Part shown: piece by piece, positions 14,465 to 51,631 of the stretch
Layout: each line of letters starts with the position of its first letter
Position numbering within the stretch: the stretch's first letter is position 1
Virus record (IMG/VR): IMGVR_UViG_3300029186_000001
Reading direction: 5' to 3' (one strand)
Length of the DNA stretch: 64,000 bases
Source: a virus
Taxonomy: Duplodnaviria; Heunggongvirae; Uroviricota; Caudoviricetes
Notes under the pieces: model-generated
Told to the model about the DNA's origin: nothing
Databases searched by the model: none
The model's input: the letters and a program-made list of their open reading frames with translations, nothing else
Made by a program: the position numbers and the translations under genes

Positions 14465-14546
14465 ATTTTCAGCTCCTGTGATTGATTGGATACATGCCGC
14501 GCCTTGCGGCATGTTTTTATTTTCACTTTCTCTGTTTTAAAAATCA

Positions 14547-14563
14547 ATATTTATTAGAGCAAT
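14547..14563 (-). promoter_or_regulatory. C1 operator-like 17-mer (16/17 to consensus)
   Basis: ATATTTATTAGAGCAAT on plus strand; ~85 nt upstream of the 28-aa peptide ORF. Confidence 0.55.
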
Positions 14564-15069
14564 TATTGTTGGTGGAGAAGCGCGTTTTCATACTCCCTGA
14601 CCATTAACGTAAGTACGCCGTGACTCCTGAAAACACGCGCCACTTCAATCTTATCTTCCAGCGCGAACGCAATTTTACTTAGACCAATTTTCTTCAGGAG
14701 ATCAATCTTTGCTGGACCGTCATTTCTGTCATCGGTGGCAGGACGCATAGATAGCAAAGGCTCAGCCCCGTTTGTTACGTACTTCCGCAGCCAGGCTCGT
14801 GTTTTATCCCTTGCGATCTCACAGCGCCCGGTTACAAACCAGACCGTGTAAACGTTAAATAACTGGCGCACCATATCAATAACCGGAGTGATGGGAGTAT
14901 CGGTGTCACAGGCGAGATTAAACTCGTTCCAGTCCTTTGTTAATGCACCTTTACCTGGTGGCGGAAGCAAATGCAGTCTGTCTTCAGTTGCCTCTGATAT
15001 TGTTCCATCAATATCGACTATGACGATATACGGACGTTCCTGGTGTGCGTGTTTATTGAAAATACTCAA
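14563..15069 (-). CDS. HAD-superfamily phosphatase-like protein (168 aa)
   Basis: N-terminal IVIVDIDGT (DxDxT) motif typical of HAD phosphatases. Confidence 0.55.
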   Translation of the reverse strand: MSIFNKHAHQERPYIVIVDIDGTISEATEDRLHLLPPPGKGALTKDWNEFNLACDTDTPITPVIDMVRQLFNVYTVWFVTGRCEIARDKTRAWLRKYVTNGAEPLLSMRPATDDRNDGPAKIDLLKKIGLSKIAFALEDKIEVARVFRSHGVLTLMVREYENALLHQQ

Positions 15070-15141
15070 ATGCCCTCCTCATTGGACGAAAAAAATGCTG
15101 GTGGGCGCACTCCACCAGCATTAAAAGTGACGCTGTAACTA

Positions 15142-16404
15142 TCAGCGGACGTAAATAGTGCCGCCGTTCTCTTTTTCCCATGCATCGCTACGTGCATAGC
15201 AAACATCGAGAAGTCTTCTTGCCGCTGTTTCCTCTAAACCCAATTCGACAACCAACTGCTCATGACGGCGGGTAACCACATCAAACAGGGTATGCAACCC
15301 TTTAGTTGCCAGATCATCAATGAATTCCGGTTCGAACGGCAGCTCTGCATCTGCCAACATAACCTCTTGCGCCCACTCAACTCGACGGACCAATTCCGGG
15401 CGGCGGCTTTCCATCTCTTTACAGATCAATTCATGGAAGAACTCTACCCAACCTTCCGGCTGGAACTCGCGGAAAATTGCCAACGGCTGGAAGTTTGGCA
15501 TCAACCATTCGTTGATTCGGATATCAATGGCATAGCCCATGTCGCAGCAGAACTGATAAGCAAAGTCCAGCTTAGAAACGATATAAGGACGCTCGTTATT
15601 GAACTCTTTAGGCGATGAGATCCCATAAGCCAGGAGGCGCGGGAAGAAGGAGATTTGCCCTAACGTCGGATGAAGTTTGCTTGCAGGGAAACGGCGCTCA
15701 GTAATGCCATACATTTCCTTCTTGAGCGTCGCAAATTTGGCATTCTCATTAACCAGCGCGGTAACCTCTGCTTTTTTATTAGCAAATGCCACGCGCGCTT
15801 CGCTTGCATCTTTAATAGTTTTTTTGAGCTGTTGGTTAAGGTCGGCGACCTGCTTACGCAGTTCCTGTCGCTCGCTTTTAGCTTTGTTATAGCGTTTCTC
15901 AAGGTTAAAAGGATCAAGTTTCATGATCTCTTTATATTGAGATTTTAGCGTTGAAATCTGTGAGTTCCGCAGTTCAACCATCGCGGTCATTTCATTGAGT
16001 TTTGTTTCCAGCTCAATGCTTATACGTTCGGCATTATCAGCACGCTGGTTGGCGTCATGCGTCGCATTGTCGATCGCGTCCTGTTGCTGGCGTTTCAAAT
16101 GTTCAATTTGTAGCTGAAGCTCTTCAATTTCTTTACCCTTCAGACCGAGATCCAACTGCATATTTTCAGCTGCATCTACCAGGGAGTTATGGCTATCAGC
16201 TTCTGCGTTATAAACATCAATAAGCTGTGCGTGAAGCATCTCCGCTGACTGAACCGCATTATCAAAAAAACGCGCTGTGAGGTCATCACAACTAACGCGG
16301 CGTTGCGCGGCCCGGATGTTCTGGATAATGGCCGGGATACCGGCATTCAGGACGTCAGGGATAGATACATTTTCGATTGATTGGTTTTGTGCTGAAGTGA
16401 TCAT
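15142..16404 (-). CDS. Coiled-coil protein (420 aa)
   Basis: Long heptad-rich N-terminal half; start coupled to stop of the 72-aa ORF. Confidence 0.6.
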   Translation of the reverse strand: MITSAQNQSIENVSIPDVLNAGIPAIIQNIRAAQRRVSCDDLTARFFDNAVQSAEMLHAQLIDVYNAEADSHNSLVDAAENMQLDLGLKGKEIEELQLQIEHLKRQQQDAIDNATHDANQRADNAERISIELETKLNEMTAMVELRNSQISTLKSQYKEIMKLDPFNLEKRYNKAKSERQELRKQVADLNQQLKKTIKDASEARVAFANKKAEVTALVNENAKFATLKKEMYGITERRFPASKLHPTLGQISFFPRLLAYGISSPKEFNNERPYIVSKLDFAYQFCCDMGYAIDIRINEWLMPNFQPLAIFREFQPEGWVEFFHELICKEMESRRPELVRRVEWAQEVMLADAELPFEPEFIDDLATKGLHTLFDVVTRRHEQLVVELGLEETAARRLLDVCYARSDAWEKENGGTIYVR

Positions 16405-16405
16405 T

Positions 16406-16624
16406 TCAAAGTTCCGTATTAGCTTGTGCTTCGGTCATTTTTCCTAAGTATGAAGGAGGAAGGACTACGCAATTTGTATCCAGTCCCTCACCTATGGCAG
16501 CCTGTAAAATTCTGGCTAAGGTGAGTCTCTTGTTGCGATACCTGGTGATGACATGCCTGATACCGCCGGTCGGCGTAACAAAGGCGATCAGCCAGTAGTG
16601 ATATTTCCGTCGGAATGGCCACAT
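16406..16624 (-). CDS. Small protein (72 aa)
   Basis: First ORF downstream of the dual C1-operator region. Confidence 0.45.
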   Translation of the reverse strand: MWPFRRKYHYWLIAFVTPTGGIRHVITRYRNKRLTLARILQAAIGEGLDTNCVVLPPSYLGKMTEAQANTEL

Positions 16625-16638
16625 AGTGCACCTTGTAG

Positions 16639-16655
16639 ATTGCTCTAATAAAAAA
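16639..16655 (+). promoter_or_regulatory. C1 operator-like 17-mer ATTGCTCTAATAAAAAA
   Basis: 14/17 to consensus; one of a facing pair flanking a hairpin. Confidence 0.5.
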
Positions 16656-16676
16656 CGTGATGAGTGTACATCACGT
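16655..16676. terminator. Palindromic hairpin flanked by A and T runs (bidirectional terminator candidate)
   Basis: ACGTGATG / CATCACGT 8-bp stem with 6-nt loop, T-run on both strands. Confidence 0.45.
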
Positions 16677-16687
16677 TTTAAAAATAT

Positions 16688-16704
16688 GGAATTATTAGAG
16701 CAAT
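16688..16704 (-). promoter_or_regulatory. C1 operator-like 17-mer (GGAATTATTAGAGCAAT on plus strand)
   Basis: 14/17 to reverse-complement consensus; partner of the 16639 site. Confidence 0.5.
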
Positions 16705-16705
16705 A

Positions 16706-17407
16706 TTATTCTGATCCTCGCTCAAAAAATGAGCTGATAAGGGGGAGCCAATCCTCTGACACTTCGCGAGGTCGCGGTTTGCCGTGGAAAAAGATTATTC
16801 GGCAGTCTTTTGGTAATGCCCCATTCCCCCTGGAGTAACGCGCGCTCGCATATTTTGAACCAGGTTCCACAACATCGGCCTTGTAACTTACAAACCATCC
16901 TGGATACAGATCCTGAAATGCTGGTGTATCATCGCCCATAACCTTTCGTAAGAACCCCTGGTCACCCCAGCACTCAGTAGTGACACAACGAGAAATCCAA
17001 CCTTCCGGATCTTGCCAGAATGAACTCCAGATATGCGCTTTAACACTATTTGGTATCCACAGGGCACCGCTACCACGATATTGTGGATGGTAAAAATCCC
17101 TAAGCATGGTGAAGCTGGTTGGTGGATGCTCTAGGATTGGGCGTATATCACCGGCAATAACCGTGTCCAAATCCAGATAGAACAGATCATCGGTTATATC
17201 CGGTCGGAACAACTCGATTTTCGCCCACCAGCCACGGCACTTTTGCCACTGGTTGATCAATGGGATAACTTTGACGCCAGGTACATGTAAACACTTCAGG
17301 TCTGTCAGGCAAATAATTTCATAGTCTTTTGGCAGTTGATTAACCAGCCACTGCACATCGGAAGCGTTATAGTCACCACCAGAGCGAAGAACTAAAGCAA
17401 TCTTCAT
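16706..17407 (-). CDS. Putative nucleotide-sugar transferase-like protein (233 aa)
   Basis: DLDTVIAGD (DXD-like) motif; weak evidence. Confidence 0.4.
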
Positions 17408-18096
17408 GCTGCACCATCACCTTTCACTTTCATCAATGTCAGGTTTCCGCAAAATACGGCACCAGTGTCGATATACTGCTGATTCCAGAATGTCTTCGGG
17501 CTTTTCACCGGAGTGTGACCAAAGATAAAACGATCTGCGCCCGAAATTTCGCCACCAATATCATCCATCGAATCACTGATACGCTCGCGCGCCCAGACAA
17601 CGTTGAAAAGCGGCACCTCCTTACCGAATTGGTATTCATTATCCGGATAGTCGGCATGGGCTATAACGATAGTTTCTTGCCCGGTGTTCAACTCAATGAT
17701 ATGAGGCAATTGCCTTACCAGCTCCACCAGCGTCCTGGCTAAAACTTCCTTATCACTATCCAGCATAAAGAACCACTGACCGCCATTCATTAGCCAGTTA
17801 TTCACGTTGCCATCAGGACTTAACGCATCGAGCATCAACCGCTCATGGTTCCCCATCACTGCCCTGAACCAGGGCATCTGCAATAGTTCCAGACATTCGA
17901 CATTTTCAGTACCGCGATCGATAAGGTCGCCGACCGATATCAGTAAATCCTGCGCCGGGTCAAAATCCACACGATGGAGTTCGGACATCAGTCTGGTGTA
18001 GCAACCATGCAGATCACCAACAACCCAGACATTCCTGTATTTGGTACCGTCGATACGGTGATAAATTGTGGGTGCCATCATGTATTCTTCAGCCAT
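17404..18096 (-). CDS. Ser/Thr protein phosphatase, PP-lambda/PrpA family (230 aa)
   Basis: GDLHG, GDLIDRG and GNHE metallophosphatase motifs. Confidence 0.85.
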
Positions 18097-18704
18097 TCTT
18101 TAAGAGTCATCTGCGGAATACCTCCCATTTTCCCGCATGAAACAACGTCAATCTGTTCACGCGCAGACTGGAATAACAAAGGCAGGTGACTTAGATTTTT
18201 TGGCGTGCCGCCGGAGTGAACGCGTAGTTCTTGCGTAGCGTCAACGCCCACCAGAGCTACATGTTTGAATCCGATATGGAAAGCCAGGTTCAGAGCACCA
18301 TATGCACTATTGCCGCTGGCAATTTCATTCTCATCTTCGCAAAGGCCGAAATGTGCGGACCAGCGCCACGCCCACCACTCGGGAGAATTCGTATTTTTTG
18401 GCTCCATGCCGCGTTCAGCCACACGACGGAAGCACAGAACGCCATCTCTGACTTCACGTTCTTTAACATCGGGTAGTGCCATGCAATAACAAACACCACG
18501 GCGACGGCGGCCACGACCAACGCGCCGCATATTGTCTGGGGATGGATCAAGGGTGAAAAAATAAGAAGCGCGGTTAAGCCAGTCGATGGCCCCATTGACC
18601 GCTATAATCGGCACTCCGCGCGGCGCAACAAAGTTTGCGGCGCTTGGGCCACTGCCGACGATAATAACGCGATCACTGCCTCTAAATTTATTCTTGGGAA
18701 ACAT
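18078..18704 (-). CDS. GSGPS-motif Rossmann-like protein, possible GT42/Maf-like glycosyltransferase (208 aa)
   Basis: VIIVGSGPS...IIAVNG...LVGVD pattern resembling sialyltransferase-like enzymes; paralog of the 220-aa ORF. Confidence 0.45.
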
Positions 18705-19264
18705 TGAATTGCACTGCTCCTACTTGCATTCAAAATATGTAAATCTGCGTGTTTTTTGCGGGTATCCAGGAACTGCTGTTGCCATTTTGAAATAGACACC
18801 TGCGTTGGATTCCGTAGTGCTTGAGGGTGCGCGCCATGCCAATGAAGGCCGTTTTGCAGAGAACAGTCATAGCCGACTAATACCACTACTTCAGCCCCTG
18901 ATTCAGCAGCCAGACTGATAGCCTGCGCGCCGCTATTTACCCCTTCCGCCGGTCCACAATATCGCCTGTACTCCAACGAAAATGATTTCGCCGCCGCCAG
19001 GTTGGCTGTCACTTTGCGGAACCTCCCTCCCGGTATGGTGGAACCGTATTGCTTCCACCATGACAAATCACCGGCGTATAAGGCATAAATGTCATCGAAC
19101 ATCTGCCAGGAATTGTTAACCGCGATGATTGAACAGCCAGTTTTTTCTATAGCAGCACAGTCCTCACGAGTGAGTGACGGACCGCTACCGACACAAAAAA
19201 CAGTCCTAGTCGCCCTGGGTGGTATGTTCATTCTCAGCTGCAAATTCAGCCTCCAGGCGAGCAT
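18602..19264 (-). CDS. GSGPS-motif Rossmann-like protein paralog (220 aa)
   Basis: VFCVGSGPSL...IIAVNN...VLVGYD; its 3-prime end overlaps the downstream paralog by ~100 nt in another frame. Confidence 0.45.
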   Translation of the reverse strand: MLAWRLNLQLRMNIPPRATRTVFCVGSGPSLTREDCAAIEKTGCSIIAVNNSWQMFDDIYALYAGDLSWWKQYGSTIPGGRFRKVTANLAAAKSFSLEYRRYCGPAEGVNSGAQAISLAAESGAEVVVLVGYDCSLQNGLHWHGAHPQALRNPTQVSISKWQQQFLDTRKKHADLHILNASRSSAIQCFPRINLEAVIALLSSAVAQAPQTLLRRAECRL

Positions 19265-19404
19265 TCATTTCAGCGATTACAGGGTCCACTACAGCATCTG
19301 TTTCCTGTTCATTACGCGGCATGACCGATGCCAGCGACTCATAATTAACCTTGGATGACACGATTATTCTCCCGATGTTAAAGTGCACTACCACAAAGAG
19401 CGCA

Positions 19405-19421
19405 CATGCACTAATTAATTT
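19405..19421 (+). promoter_or_regulatory. C1 operator-like site (13/17)
   Basis: CATGCACTAATTAATTT between the VRR-NUC gene and the GSGPS paralogs. Confidence 0.35.
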
Positions 19422-19427
19422 ATTATT

Positions 19428-50916: not shown

Positions 50917-51134
50917 AAACCCCCCTGAACGTCGGCAGAGAAGGGGAGGCTCCAGTAACTAAGTGAATTGCGCGAGTTAGTTGAAAAACGGGCAGTAAAA
51001 ATGCAGGGGCCATCAGGCAATTGAGAGCGTGCTTCGTCTTCTGTTGCTGCGATAACGAAGTGATAGTGGTGTTTTTGGCAGGAGTAAAAGCGCCAGATAA
51101 ATTCAGGATGAGTAGGGGTAGGGATAGTAGCCAC
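50913..51134 (-). CDS. Icd-like small protein (73 aa, GTG start) overlapping the ant start
   Basis: ORF with AAGGAGG RBS; position and size match the P1 icd gene. Confidence 0.5.
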   Translation of the reverse strand: MATIPTPTHPEFIWRFYSCQKHHYHFVIAATEDEARSQLPDGPCIFTARFSTNSRNSLSYWSLPFSADVQGGL

Positions 51135-51194
51135 AATGGCAGCCTCCTTTTGCTAATTTAAGGAGCTACCGCGTGAGGTTCCAATCTCAATGGC

Positions 51195-51290
51195 GGTAGC
51201 ACTGACTGGGTTGGAACTACCGGCGCAAAAGGGAACCGGCCTGCCTTTCGGCAGCCCAGCCAGCACTACCATTGATCTCGGAGCTATGTG
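51195..51290 (-). ncRNA. c4-type antisense repressor RNA region (approximate bounds)
   Basis: Between operator and icd the transcript carries GTTCCAA (51208-51221 region) complementary to ATTGGAACC elements at 51364-51378 and 51175-51188, fitting the c4 a-prime/b-prime logic; ends not determined. Confidence 0.35.
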
Positions 51291-51468
51291 CTACGTATGG
51301 TTGTGCGATGGCATGACACAAAAAAAGACGCTTTTGGCGTCTATGTCGCCTTTTGCATTATCCGGGGTTCCAATCCCGGCATCCGTTTTACTAAGATGCC
51401 TGTTTAGGATAAACCGAAAATGCATTAGCACGCAAGCAAGTTAATGTAGCATATGAAGCTAAAAAAAT

Positions 51469-51485
51469 AAAATAATTAGAGCAAC
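51469..51485 (-). promoter_or_regulatory. C1 operator-like 17-mer (14/17), Op51-type
   Basis: AAAATAATTAGAGCAAC upstream of the c4-icd-ant operon. Confidence 0.5.
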
Positions 51486-51553
51486 TTGCAACCATGTAAA
51501 TTATTTCTCTGGTAACTAAAATGTATGAGTTTAATTGATATGGGTCAAAGATT

Positions 51554-51582
51554 TTGACCATTGCATGGTGAAACTTTATGCT
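51554..51582 (+). promoter_or_regulatory. Sigma70-like promoter for the AT-rich cassette
   Basis: TTGACC -35, 17-bp spacer, TATGCT -10, ~50 nt upstream of 51632; overlapped by palindrome GGTCAAA-GAT-TTTGACC at 51543-51559. Confidence 0.4.
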
Positions 51583-51631
51583 ACAAAATGTTATTTTAAG
51601 GCGTTTTATCTGTGGCAGGAGATAGTTAATC

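What the first reader, a model, noticed from the sequence alone, without database searches (positions are those of the whole stretch)
16706..19264. Glycosyltransferase-like genes and two phosphatases in C1-controlled accessory operons
The window carries a 233-aa DXD-motif protein, two paralogous GSGPS-motif Rossmann proteins (208 and 220 aa) and, at 25199-26197, a GT-B glycosyltransferase-like gene. A PP-lambda Ser/Thr phosphatase and a HAD phosphatase lie next to them. The two paralogs overlap by ~100 nt in different frames, since the conserved motif sits at residues 14-21 of the downstream gene. A phage that adsorbs to LPS core could use such enzymes to modify host glycans (receptor masking) or its own DNA or proteins; the family calls are motif-level only.
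Basis: partly seen in the sequence, partly recalled or inferred. Interest (0 to 1): 0.45.

Follow-up and report, generated by a model that had tools for sequence, protein, structure and literature searches.

The report
Phage P1 four-glycosyltransferase module
The flagged genes are phage P1's known but uncharacterised pmgO, pmgP, pmgQ and dbn, which appear to be four real sugar-transferring enzymes forming one module conserved in many unrelated phages, probably building a Kdo-containing glycan on a target that is still unknown.

Summary
The window is a P1-type phage, 99% identical to P1 over this region. All the ORFs exist as described. They are pmgQ (233 aa), ppp, pmgP (208 aa), pmgO (220 aa), pap and dbn.

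- **PmgQ** is a GT8-like retaining GT-A enzyme. The model has pLDDT 94.8 and the top 50 PDB fold hits are all retaining GT-A glycosyltransferases, mostly GT8. The DxD motif is invariant.
- **Dbn** is GT4-like, with an invariant EX7E motif, but its Pfam score is below threshold.
- **Overlap:** the 103-nt pmgO/pmgP overlap is real and old. The pmgP start lies in the same PmgO Cys codon in distant relatives, and one relative has an in-frame fusion.

What goes beyond the current annotation is that the four genes form one module. They lie contiguously, in the order O-P-Dbn-Q, in an unrelated 111-kb coliphage. O-P-Q recurs in many prophages, sometimes directly after the capsid gene. A distant P1 relative adds a kdsB (CMP-Kdo synthetase) gene to the block, which points to Kdo as the donor sugar.

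Ppp (a λ phosphatase homolog) is a P1-lineage insertion and not part of the module. Masking of the receptor in lysogens is unlikely, because the operons are C1-repressed. The acceptor (virion or other protein versus LPS core) remains unresolved.

The parts
19206..19361 (-). pmgN (51 aa, GTG start), first gene of the pmgN-pmgQ operon. Its 3' end overlaps the pmgO start by 59 nt.
   Evidence: P1 annotation, sequence alignment, PHROG 2350 of unknown function.
18602..19264 (-). pmgO, 220 aa. A Maf/Cst/MptE-fold enzyme and putative CMP-ulosonic-acid (Kdo) transferase. Residues 1-20 and about 201-220 are low-confidence, non-conserved tails.
18078..18704 (-). pmgP, 208 aa, a paralog of pmgO with the same fold class. 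It keeps the shared N37, D53, S133, G153 and D155 positions.
   Evidence: hhalign A4 against A5: 99.5%, E=9e-23. Relatives pass the Pfam PF01973 cutoff. 247 family clusters. Invariant columns.
18602..18704 (-). The 103-nt pmgO/pmgP overlap, with pmgP in the -1 frame. The pmgP ATG is formed by ..A TGy across the conserved PmgO Cys188 codon.
   Evidence: The same start position occurs in L086, L088 and L089. There is an in-frame fusion in P0051/L003.
17404..18096 (-). ppp, a λ-type PPP-family Ser/Thr phosphatase, inserted between pmgP and pmgQ in the P1 lineage.
   Evidence: 1G5B E=1e-94. Metallophos. Absent between P and Q in every non-P1 locus.
16706..17407 (-). pmgQ, 233 aa, a GT8-like retaining GT-A glycosyltransferase with DxD at residues 79-81.
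   Evidence: Profile against PDB: AgtA 3.9e-8, glycogenin 2.7e-5. AF2 pLDDT 94.8. Foldseek top 50 are all retaining GT-A glycosyltransferases, mostly GT8, plus AgtA and UGGT.
16639..16704 (.). Two inverted C1 operators (Op86b and Op86a) flanking a hairpin plus T-run (AAAACGTGATG-TACACT-CATCACGTTTTTT). This marks the end of the pmgN-Q operon and the control region of pmgR-pmgS.
   Evidence: P1 annotation.
19405..19421 (+). Op83 (Oppp), the C1 operator upstream of pmgN. It has 4 mismatches to the 17-bp consensus.
   Evidence: P1 annotation mapped onto the window; sequence read.
25199..26197 (-). dbn, 332 aa, a GT4-like (GT-B) glycosyltransferase. It is the last gene of the ban operon; its ATG overlaps the ban stop codon (TTAATG).
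   Evidence: PF00534 E=3.5e-5 at 23.8 bits, below the 26.4 cutoff. 13 of 15 family members hit PF00534. E248-x7-E256 is invariant. Junction sequence. Contiguous with O, P and Q in EP_H11.
14563..15069 (-). pap, a HAD phosphatase of the PNKP-phosphatase type. It lies behind a terminator and is doubtful as a module member.
   Evidence: HAD_PNKP 7.8e-12. PHROG 415. The Pap homolog is translationally coupled to kdsB in L086.
15094..15122 (-). Intrinsic-terminator-like hairpin (11 pairs plus a T-run) between pmgS and pap.
30732..30759 (.). Overlapping pair of C1 operator matches, assigned to Op72 (the ban operon operator that governs dbn expression) from my own knowledge of the P1 map.
   Evidence: 0 and 2 mismatches. 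The assignment to Op72 is from memory and was not checked against an annotation, because the region fetched does not reach it.

Best explanation
pmgO, pmgP, pmgQ and dbn encode four soluble cytoplasmic glycosyltransferases that together form one conserved phage glycosylation module. In P1 the module is split between two C1-repressed operons: pmgN-pmgO-pmgP-ppp-pmgQ and the ban operon.

PmgO and PmgP are paralogs of the Maf/Cst-sialyltransferase/WaaZ fold class, whose members use CMP-activated 2-keto-3-deoxy sugar acids. In E. coli K-12 the only such donor is CMP-Kdo, so they most likely transfer Kdo. They are translationally coupled through a conserved 94-109-nt gene overlap and can work as a single polypeptide. 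PmgQ is a Mn2+/DxD-type retaining GT8-like hexosyltransferase. Dbn is a GT4-type enzyme.

After C1 derepression, during lytic growth, the four enzymes would build a short Kdo-plus-hexose glycan on an acceptor in the cytoplasm. I judge a protein acceptor (virion or other phage or cell protein) somewhat more likely than the LPS core. Ppp (a λ-type phosphatase) and probably Pap are independent accessory genes.

**Shown:** fold and family assignments, paralogy, conservation of the module, conservation of the overlap.
**Inferred:** the donor sugar, the order of action, the acceptor.
For: **Identity.** 99% identity to P1; the genes are annotated as pmgO, pmgP, pmgQ and dbn.

**PmgQ.** The profile hits AgtA at 3.9e-8 and glycogenin at 2.7e-5, with DxD, GDQ and H-G columns aligned. 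The model has pLDDT 94.8, and all top 50 Foldseek PDB hits are retaining GT-A glycosyltransferases, mostly GT8.

**PmgO and PmgP.**
- hhalign 99.5% between the two families.
- The joint profile has Cst-II as its top 7 PDB hits (E=1.6e-4), against MptE at E=1.4.
- N, D, S, G and D positions are invariant in both families. Their spacing resembles that of the Maf residues shown to be essential, an acidic residue, a Ser and an acidic residue.
- Maf enzymes transfer Kdo from E. coli's CMP-Kdo pool onto Ser/Thr.

**Module.**
- O-P-Dbn-Q are contiguous and overlapping in phages EP_H11 and IME392.
- O-P-Q occur together in phiNP/L089, L088, L003, L086, L101, L107, L108 and Pseudescherichia.
- Dbn occurs with P and Q in Serratia and Buttiauxella.
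- An O-P fusion protein exists, P0051.

**Kdo.** A kdsB equivalog (TIGR00466, 270 bits against a cutoff of 155) lies in the same gene block of a distant P1 relative.

**Protein acceptor.** The module sits directly after the major capsid gene in L101 and inside the head-tail module in L090. In chromosomes, PmgO-like genes abut Big_1 inverse-autotransporter genes.

**Lytic timing.** C1 operators are present, and P1 annotates a late promoter, LPpmgL.
Against: - No biochemical data exist for any of these proteins.
- All four genes, plus ppp and pap, are non-essential for plaque formation.
- The window's PmgO, PmgP and Dbn all fall below Pfam gathering scores, and PmgQ matches no Pfam family.
- The Dbn profile found no GT-B structure in the PDB, and no fold model of Dbn could be made.
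- kdsB is linked in only one lineage.
- The WaaZ similarity is weak.
- No Big_1 protein or other obvious acceptor was found in the window.
- In EP_H11 the module lies among early DNA-metabolism genes, not structural genes.
- One phage (L088) also carries a Wzz homolog, which hints at LPS.
Confidence: 0.55

Rival explanations
1. The module remodels the LPS core of the infected cell during lytic growth, for example WaaZ-like addition of extra Kdo plus hexoses. This would remove or mask the P1 receptor, so that progeny are not lost on debris and superinfection is reduced.
For: - The enzyme set mirrors the host core-assembly enzymes: WaaZ-like, GT8 like WaaO/WaaJ, and GT4 like WaaG. WaaZ gives weak hits to PmgP, and P0051 carries a faint PF27901 WaaZ_KDO_III hit.
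- A third Kdo added by WaaZ goes together with outer-core truncation in K-12.
- kdsB is linked in L086.
- A Wzz homolog lies beside the module in L088.
- Cst enzymes act on lipooligosaccharide, and the GT8 hit LgtC is a lipooligosaccharide enzyme.
- P1 needs galU-dependent LPS glucose; this is cited as a reference in the paper read.
Against: - The WaaZ similarity covers only about 37 residues at 66% probability, and NCBIfam gives 11.9 bits against a cutoff of 200.
- The module's position right after the capsid gene (L101) or inside the head-tail module (L090) is not expected for an LPS enzyme.
- The chromosomal copies sit beside adhesin genes, not waa genes.
- The module occurs in a Bacteroidota genome as well as in Proteobacteria, across hosts with differing cores.
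Confidence: 0.27
2. PmgO and PmgP are not glycosyltransferases. They are MptE/thiamine-pyrophosphokinase-like nucleotide-dependent pyrophosphokinases, or some other small-molecule enzymes, that merely neighbour true glycosyltransferases.
Against: - The sequence profile prefers Cst-II by about four orders of magnitude over MptE.
- The genes are constantly linked to two bona fide glycosyltransferase families, and once to kdsB.
Confidence: 0.1
3. One reading: the genes are lysogenic-conversion functions that mask the LPS receptor in lysogens, or they glycosylate phage DNA.
For: P1 adsorbs to the LPS core. Many temperate phages carry O-antigen-modifying glycosyltransferases (general statement in the paper read).
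Against: - Both operons carry C1 operators, so they are repressed in the prophage state.
- The module also occurs in EP_H11 and IME392 amid early replication genes.
- The window has no hydroxymethylase or other hypermodified-base pathway. The known DNA glucosyltransferases I can recall are of other fold classes (from memory).
Confidence: 0.05
4. The pmgO/pmgP overlap serves programmed -1 ribosomal frameshifting, which would make a PmgO-PmgP fusion protein.
For: - pmgP is in the -1 frame in P1, L086, L088, L089 and EP_H11.
- A natural in-frame fusion exists (P0051).
- The overlap in P1 contains heptamers of the form X XXY YYZ: T TTC CCA and A AAT TTA.
Against: - L088 and L089 have no slippery heptamer in the overlap.
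- The pmgP ATG is conserved at the same position in all of them.
- A shift at the P1 heptamers would delete the conserved C-terminal helix of PmgO, which the natural fusion keeps.
Confidence: 0.05

Closest known systems
Maf (motility-associated factor) flagellin nonulosonic-acid glycosyltransferases, PDB 5MU5, Pfam PF01973/DUF115
   Different: Maf proteins are about 630 aa and have extra N- and C-terminal substrate-binding domains. PmgO and PmgP are 208-220 aa and consist of the catalytic core only. No flagellin genes are in the context. The window proteins score below the PF01973 gathering threshold.
Campylobacter Cst-I/Cst-II sialyltransferases (CAZy GT42)
   Different: From memory, E. coli K-12 makes no CMP-sialic acid and P1 encodes no synthesis genes for it. 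The Cst-II catalytic His188 and Tyr156/162 could not be mapped. PmgO has its own invariant H-W-H-G-x-H motif.
WaaZ, the Kdo III transferase of the E. coli K-12 LPS core (CAZy GT73 from memory; TIGR04437/PF27901)
   Same: The N-terminal nucleotide-binding motif region aligns with PmgP (hhalign 66%, 37 residues). P0051 has a faint PF27901 hit. The predicted donor, CMP-Kdo, is the same.
   Different: Scores are far below the family cutoffs: 11.9 bits against 200. The similarity to PmgO is not significant. Membership is not established.
GT8 retaining glycosyltransferases (glycogenin, LgtC, GlyE, WaaO/WaaJ) and the related AgtA
   Same: PmgQ shares the GT-A fold, the DxD motif, and the GDQ and H-G motif columns.
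   Different: PmgQ matches no Pfam family, Glyco_transf_8 included, at E≤1. It is only 12-17% identical to these enzymes, and at 233 aa it is shorter than most.
Mycobacteriophage virion glycosylation (Che8-type glycosyltransferases; Freeman et al. 2023, as summarised in PMC11256854)
   Same: Phage-encoded cytoplasmic glycosyltransferases. In some relatives here the genes sit within the structural module.
   Different: The host group is different (Gram-negative), the enzyme families are different, and the proposed sugar is a ulosonic acid. There is no experimental evidence that P1 virions are glycosylated.

Membership tests
GT8-like retaining GT-A glycosyltransferases (PmgQ) | GT-A fold resembling solved GT8 members | tested here: met
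   AF2 pLDDT 94.8. The top 50 Foldseek PDB hits are all retaining GT-A glycosyltransferases, mostly GT8 plus AgtA and UGGT, with E 2.5e-8 to 2e-6 and TM 0.5-0.6.
GT8-like retaining GT-A glycosyltransferases (PmgQ) | DxD metal/nucleotide-sugar motif and downstream conserved motifs | tested here: met
   D79-L80-D81 is invariant. K63, G148-D149-Q150 and H208-G209 are conserved and align to the glycogenin and AgtA motifs.
GT8-like retaining GT-A glycosyltransferases (PmgQ) | Passes the Pfam Glyco_transf_8 model | tested here: not met
   No Pfam family at E≤1, and no NCBIfam hit. PmgQ is therefore a GT8-like outlier, not a curated member.
GT8-like retaining GT-A glycosyltransferases (PmgQ) | Glycosyl transfer with retention of configuration from a UDP-sugar | not testable with these tools
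   Needs an enzyme assay.
PF01973 MptE-like / DUF115 superfamily (PmgO, PmgP) | Pfam gathering score of 34.6 bits | tested here: not met
   The window's PmgO scores 23.4 bits and PmgP 20.9 bits. Relatives P0051 and P0233 pass, at 44 bits.
PF01973 MptE-like / DUF115 superfamily (PmgO, PmgP) | Shared fold with Maf and MptE | tested here: met
GT42 Cst-type sialyltransferases | Sequence-profile similarity, including the CMP-binding motifs | tested here: met
   E=1.6e-4 to 1e-3 for seven Cst-II sequences, with two motif blocks aligned. The match is weak but specific.
GT42 Cst-type sialyltransferases | Catalytic His188 and the phosphate-binding Tyr156/Tyr162 of Cst-II (recalled from memory) | tested here: inconclusive
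   The aligned block ends before His188. PmgO has an invariant HWHGxH motif, and PmgP a near-invariant H173, but their equivalence is unproven.
Maf flagellin glycosyltransferases | Multi-domain protein of about 600 aa with flagellin-recognition domains, and a flagellar gene context | tested here: not met
   PmgO is 220 aa. Only 163 of the 632 Maf residues align. No flagellar genes lie nearby.
WaaZ Kdo III transferase (TIGR04437 / PF27901) | Family model cutoff | tested here: not met
   PmgP scores 11.9 bits against a cutoff of 200. hhalign gives 66% over 37 residues only. PmgO against WaaZ gives 8%.
GT4 / GT-B glycosyltransferases (Dbn) | Pfam Glycos_transf_1 gathering score of 26.4 bits | tested here: not met
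   23.8 bits, E=3.5e-5. 13 of 15 family members match at E≤0.01, with a best E of 1.2e-5. This is a near miss.
GT4 / GT-B glycosyltransferases (Dbn) | EX7E motif | tested here: met
   E248-SLGLTVL-E256 is invariant in 15 homologs. It aligns with the WaaG EX7E region in a non-significant hhalign.
GT4 / GT-B glycosyltransferases (Dbn) | Two-Rossmann-domain GT-B fold | not tested
   The structure-prediction jobs were exhausted. The profile search against the PDB gave no GT-B hit.
PPP-family λ phosphatase (Ppp) | Full-length homology to λ phosphatase and the GDxHG/GDxxDRG/GNHE motifs | tested here: met
   1G5B E=1.1e-94 over 219 residues, with the motifs visible in the alignment. Metallophos 59 bits.
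HAD phosphatases, PNKP-phosphatase type (Pap) | Pfam HAD_PNKP cutoff and the DxDGT motif | tested here: met
   46 bits against a cutoff of 27.6. 'DIDGT' is present in the translation.
Programmed -1 frameshift sites | Slippery heptamer conserved at the overlap across relatives | tested here: not met
   None is present in L088 or L089.

The most novel reading that the evidence does not exclude
P1 and many other phages of Gram-negative bacteria use this four-enzyme module to put a Kdo-containing O-glycan on their own virion proteins, or on another protein target. That would be the first virion glycosylation system described for phages of Gram-negative hosts, and a natural case of protein O-Kdo glycosylation. 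The chromosomal copies would glycosylate Big_1 inverse-autotransporter adhesins in the same way.
Probability: 0.25. Interest if true: 0.75.

Novelty: new variant of a known kind. Interest (0 to 1): 0.45.

Why it matters
P1 is one of the most used phages in genetics, yet about a tenth of its genes, including these, have no known role.

If the module glycosylates virions, it would affect phage stability, immune recognition and host range, which matters for therapy and for P1-like phage-plasmids that carry resistance genes. If it remodels the LPS core, it would be a lytic-phase receptor-editing mechanism.

In either case it would supply compact (about 200 aa) Maf/Cst-type enzymes that probably use CMP-Kdo, which could be useful for glyco-engineering. 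The conserved module also gives a testable functional link between dbn (in the replication ban operon) and the 'pmg' genes.

Tried and rejected
- Single-sequence PDB searches of all four candidates gave nothing significant. Profiles were needed.
- The PmgO-only profile (A1) and the PmgP-only profile (A5) against the PDB were not significant. Only the joint profile reached 1.6e-4.
- The Dbn profile against the PDB returned only a spurious Rossmann match to tandem KtrA. hhalign against WaaG was not significant.
- An alignment meant to model the natural fusion P0051 placed the PmgO homologs on the wrong domain, so PmgO alone was folded.
- The afdb50 fold library was unavailable, so structural similarity to WaaZ could not be tested.
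- The IMG/VR scan with the PmgP profile returned only near-identical P1-like contigs. The first genome scan failed for lack of a conserved stretch.
- The Freeman et al. 2023 paper was not held.
- A search for Big_1 or adhesin-like acceptors in the window and in the phage loci found none.
- A sequencing frameshift at the overlap was rejected.
- Programmed frameshifting was considered and is judged unlikely.
- A literature search found no functional study of pmgO, pmgP, pmgQ or dbn.
Full report
**Identity of the region.** Window 14500-20300 is 99.6% identical to phage vB_EcoM-813R1 and 98.9-99.0% identical to the P1 records. The flagged ORFs, all on the minus strand, correspond to these annotated P1 genes:

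| Gene | Window coordinates |
|---|---|
| pap | 14563-15069 |
| pmgS | 15142-16404 |
| pmgR | 16406-16624 |
| pmgQ | 16706-17407 |
| ppp | 17404-18096 |
| pmgP | 18078-18704 |
| pmgO | 18602-19264 |
| pmgN | 19206-19361 |
| pmgM, pmgL | further upstream |
| dbn | 25199-26197 |
| ban | 26197-27567 |

GenBank calls the pmg genes 'putative morphogenetic function' and calls dbn a 'possible glycosyltransferase'. RefSeq already labels pmgO 'alpha-2,3-sialyltransferase' and pmgQ 'glycosyltransferase'. A genome-wide CRISPRi screen and an earlier knockout study score pmgO, pmgP, ppp, pmgQ, pap and dbn as non-essential. I found no functional study of any of them.

**Operon structure.**
- The 17-bp C1 operator consensus has 12 matches in the window, against 0.32 expected by chance. 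These include Op86a/b at 16639-16704, Op88 at 14547-14563, Op82 at 20312-20328 and an overlapping pair at 30732-30759. I assign that pair to Op72, upstream of the ban operon that ends with dbn, from my own knowledge of the P1 map.
- Op83, upstream of pmgN, is annotated in P1 but has four mismatches here.
- Between pmgQ and pmgR, the two inverted Op86 sites flank a hairpin followed by a T-run.
- A strong terminator-like hairpin separates pmgS from pap.
- Within pmgN-pmgO-pmgP-ppp-pmgQ every junction overlaps, by 59, 103, 19 and 4 nt. The ban stop overlaps the dbn start.
It also means these genes are off in the prophage.

**PmgQ.**
- No Pfam or NCBIfam model matches it.
- It has 131 homologs.
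- A 43-sequence profile hits the retaining GT-A enzymes AgtA (E=3.9e-8), glycogenin (2.7e-5) and GlyE (9.5e-5). The invariant D79-L80-D81 and the conserved K63, G-D-Q148-150 and H208-G209 fall on the corresponding motifs.
- The AlphaFold model is confident (pLDDT 94.8, pTM 0.92).
- All top 50 Foldseek PDB hits are retaining GT-A glycosyltransferases: mostly GT8 (glycogenin, LgtC, GlyE, WbbM), plus AgtA and UGGT.
- PmgQ is a GT8-like retaining glycosyltransferase that lies outside the curated family models.

**PmgO and PmgP.**
- Both give sub-threshold hits to Pfam MptE-like/DUF115. Some relatives of PmgP pass the threshold.
- Profile-profile comparison shows that they are paralogs: 99.5%, E=9e-23.
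- The PmgO model (pLDDT 89.2) has low confidence only in residues 1-20 and about 201-220.
- At the sequence level, the joint O+P profile has seven Cst-II sialyltransferases as its top PDB hits (E=1.6e-4), aligned at the G-x-G-P-S...N and (T/N)-S-G...G-x-D blocks. MptE scores E=1.4.
- N50, D66, S111, G131 and D133 (PmgO numbering) are conserved in both families. Their spacing resembles that of the acidic, Ser and acidic residues shown by mutagenesis to be essential in Maf enzymes.
- I conclude that both are catalytic-core-only transferases of the class that uses CMP-activated ulosonic acids. A pyrophosphokinase chemistry is a minor alternative.
- Similarity to WaaZ, the K-12 Kdo III transferase, is only suggestive.

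**Dbn.**
- Pfam Glycos_transf_1 matches at E=3.5e-5, with 23.8 bits against a cutoff of 26.4.
- 13 of 15 family members give the same match.
- An E-x7-E motif (E248...E256) is invariant.
- One source names the cluster 'glycosyltransferase family 4 protein'.
The GT4 assignment is therefore likely but is the weakest of the four.

**The overlap.**
- pmgO and pmgP overlap by 103 nt, with pmgP in the -1 frame.
- Over 921 nt spanning the overlap, the window shows only base substitutions relative to the P1 reference and no indels.
- Eighty independent P1-like contigs encode full-length PmgP.
- In relatives only 40-60% identical (L086, L088, L089), the pmgP ATG is created at the same place, by ..A TGy across the conserved Cys codon of the PmgO 'C-F/Y' motif. 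In those relatives pmgO stops inside the pmgP codons for G-V-T, giving overlaps of 94-109 nt. In P1 that stop is lost and pmgO runs three codons further.
- The conserved C-terminal helix of PmgO overlaps the variable N-terminus of PmgP. The variable tail of PmgO overlaps the conserved GSGPS strand of PmgP.
- One phage has an in-frame O-P fusion, P0051.
- L088 and L089 have no slippery heptamer, so programmed frameshifting is unlikely.
- The overlap is real and ancient, and it indicates coupled expression of two proteins that work together.

**The module.** Profile HMMs of the four families were run on loci from elsewhere.
- In Escherichia phage EP_H11 (111 kb), the genes are contiguous and overlapping in the order PmgO-PmgP-Dbn-PmgQ. 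They lie among early genes such as an NAD-ligase and a Pol-β-like protein. Its relative IME392 carries the PmgP homolog in a matching gene layout.
- PmgO-PmgP-PmgQ occur together in the following places:
  - Citrobacter phage phiNP, between the lysis genes and the terminase;
  - L088, with an extra GT-A-like gene and a methyltransferase;
  - L003, with the O-P fusion;
  - a distant P1-like element, L086;
  - prophages or genomes of Zhongshania, Brevundimonas, Sinomicrobium (Bacteroidota), Pantoea and Pseudescherichia.
- Dbn accompanies P and Q in Serratia and Buttiauxella.
- Ppp lies between P and Q only in close P1 relatives. Phage D6 keeps ppp at the DNA level but nothing else of this region. 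Ppp is a true λ phosphatase homolog (E=1e-94) but an unrelated insertion.

**Donor sugar.** In L086 the block runs PmgM-x-PmgO-PmgP-PmgQ-PmgR-PmgS-x-x-KdsB-Pap. The KdsB protein passes the equivalog model for CMP-Kdo synthetase (270 bits against a cutoff of 155), and it overlaps the start of the Pap homolog. Maf enzymes expressed in E. coli transfer Kdo from the host's CMP-Kdo pool onto Ser/Thr. From my own knowledge, K-12 makes no other CMP-ulosonic acid. Kdo is therefore the most probable donor for PmgO and PmgP. This is an inference resting on one linked lineage plus the fold class.

**Acceptor (unresolved).**
- For a protein target:
  - In a Zhongshania prophage the module sits directly after the major capsid gene and before the head-tail connectors.
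  - In L090 a PmgO-like gene lies inside the head-tail module, beside a collagen-like protein.
  - In L102 the module follows the terminase.
  - In Pseudescherichia and Serratia chromosomes, PmgO-like genes abut an inverse autotransporter with seven Big_1 domains and other Big_1 proteins.
  - Maf, glycogenin, GlyE and AgtA all act on proteins or on protein-linked glycans.
  - Virion glycosylation has a precedent in mycobacteriophages.
- For LPS:
  - The enzyme set mirrors the host core enzymes.
  - The WaaZ hints point the same way.
  - The third Kdo added by WaaZ is coupled to outer-core truncation.
  - A Wzz homolog lies next to the module in L088.
- My estimates are about 0.35 for protein, 0.27 for LPS, and the remainder for something else.

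**Verdict.**
- *The observation:* accurate.
- *The interpretation, supported:* the glycosyltransferase calls survive structural testing, and the four genes do belong together.
- *The interpretation, not supported:*
  - The receptor-masking-in-lysogens idea conflicts with C1 repression.
  - The phosphatases are not part of the module, although Pap is possibly linked through kdsB.
  - Nothing points to DNA modification.
- *Novelty:* the genes themselves are already annotated. What goes beyond the annotation is the conserved four-enzyme module, the conserved gene overlap and fusion, and the link to Kdo.

Noticed in passing
L086:12658-13425 (Logan SRR14843460 contig, a distant P1-like element): A kdsB equivalog (CMP-Kdo synthetase, 270 bits) lies in the pmg block, and its end overlaps the start of the Pap-like HAD phosphatase. 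Two unknown genes (103 and 271 aa) precede it. This raises the idea that Pap acts as a KdsC-like Kdo-8-phosphate phosphatase.
   Followed up: partly
L096:5357-9512 (also L095, L097-L099) and L004:10001-12442: In Pseudescherichia and Serratia chromosomes, PmgO-like genes sit next to a 1178-aa inverse autotransporter (IAT_beta plus 7 Big_1 domains) and other Big_1 proteins. PmgP, PmgQ, a phage lysozyme or holin and, in Serratia, Dbn lie nearby. This may be an adhesin-glycosylation island derived from a prophage.
   Followed up: partly
L003:10001-11131 (protein P0051): A natural in-frame fusion of PmgO-like and PmgP-like domains (376 aa) in a phage with an SU10-type portal. It is followed by PmgQ and by a 192-aa protein with a weak hit to the nucleotide-diphospho-sugar transferase family.
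   Followed up: partly
L088:5797-7153; L100, L102, L103; L101:10570-11139; L108:10646-11272; L090: The module has optional extra parts in other phages: a fifth GT-A-like family of about 190 aa (weak PF03407 hit), and SAM-dependent methyltransferases (Methyltransf_23 and FkbM types). Some PmgP relatives are fused to methyltransferase domains (P0257, P0262).
   Followed up: partly
window 16639-16704: The two Op86 C1 operators are inverted repeats that flank a terminator-like hairpin, so a repressor-binding region and an operon terminator share the same 66 bp.
   Followed up: no
window 19206-19361 (pmgN): The CRISPRi screen scores pmgN as essential (EOP 1.4e-2), while the knockout study cited in the same table scores it as non-essential. 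All downstream genes of the operon are non-essential, so this is not a simple polar effect.
   Followed up: no
window 19231-19264: The annotated pmgO start has no Shine-Dalgarno sequence. Residues 1-20 are not conserved and are modelled with low confidence. Met12 (ATG at 19231) could be the real start.
   Followed up: partly
window 51001-54000: A marked drop in G+C, to 0.34-0.41 against about 0.48 elsewhere, with positive GC skew. This may be a foreign insertion in the P1 backbone.
   Followed up: no
L088:184-1332: A Wzz (O-antigen chain-length determinant) homolog is encoded just upstream of the lysis cassette, in the same phage contig that carries the O-P-Q module.
   Followed up: no
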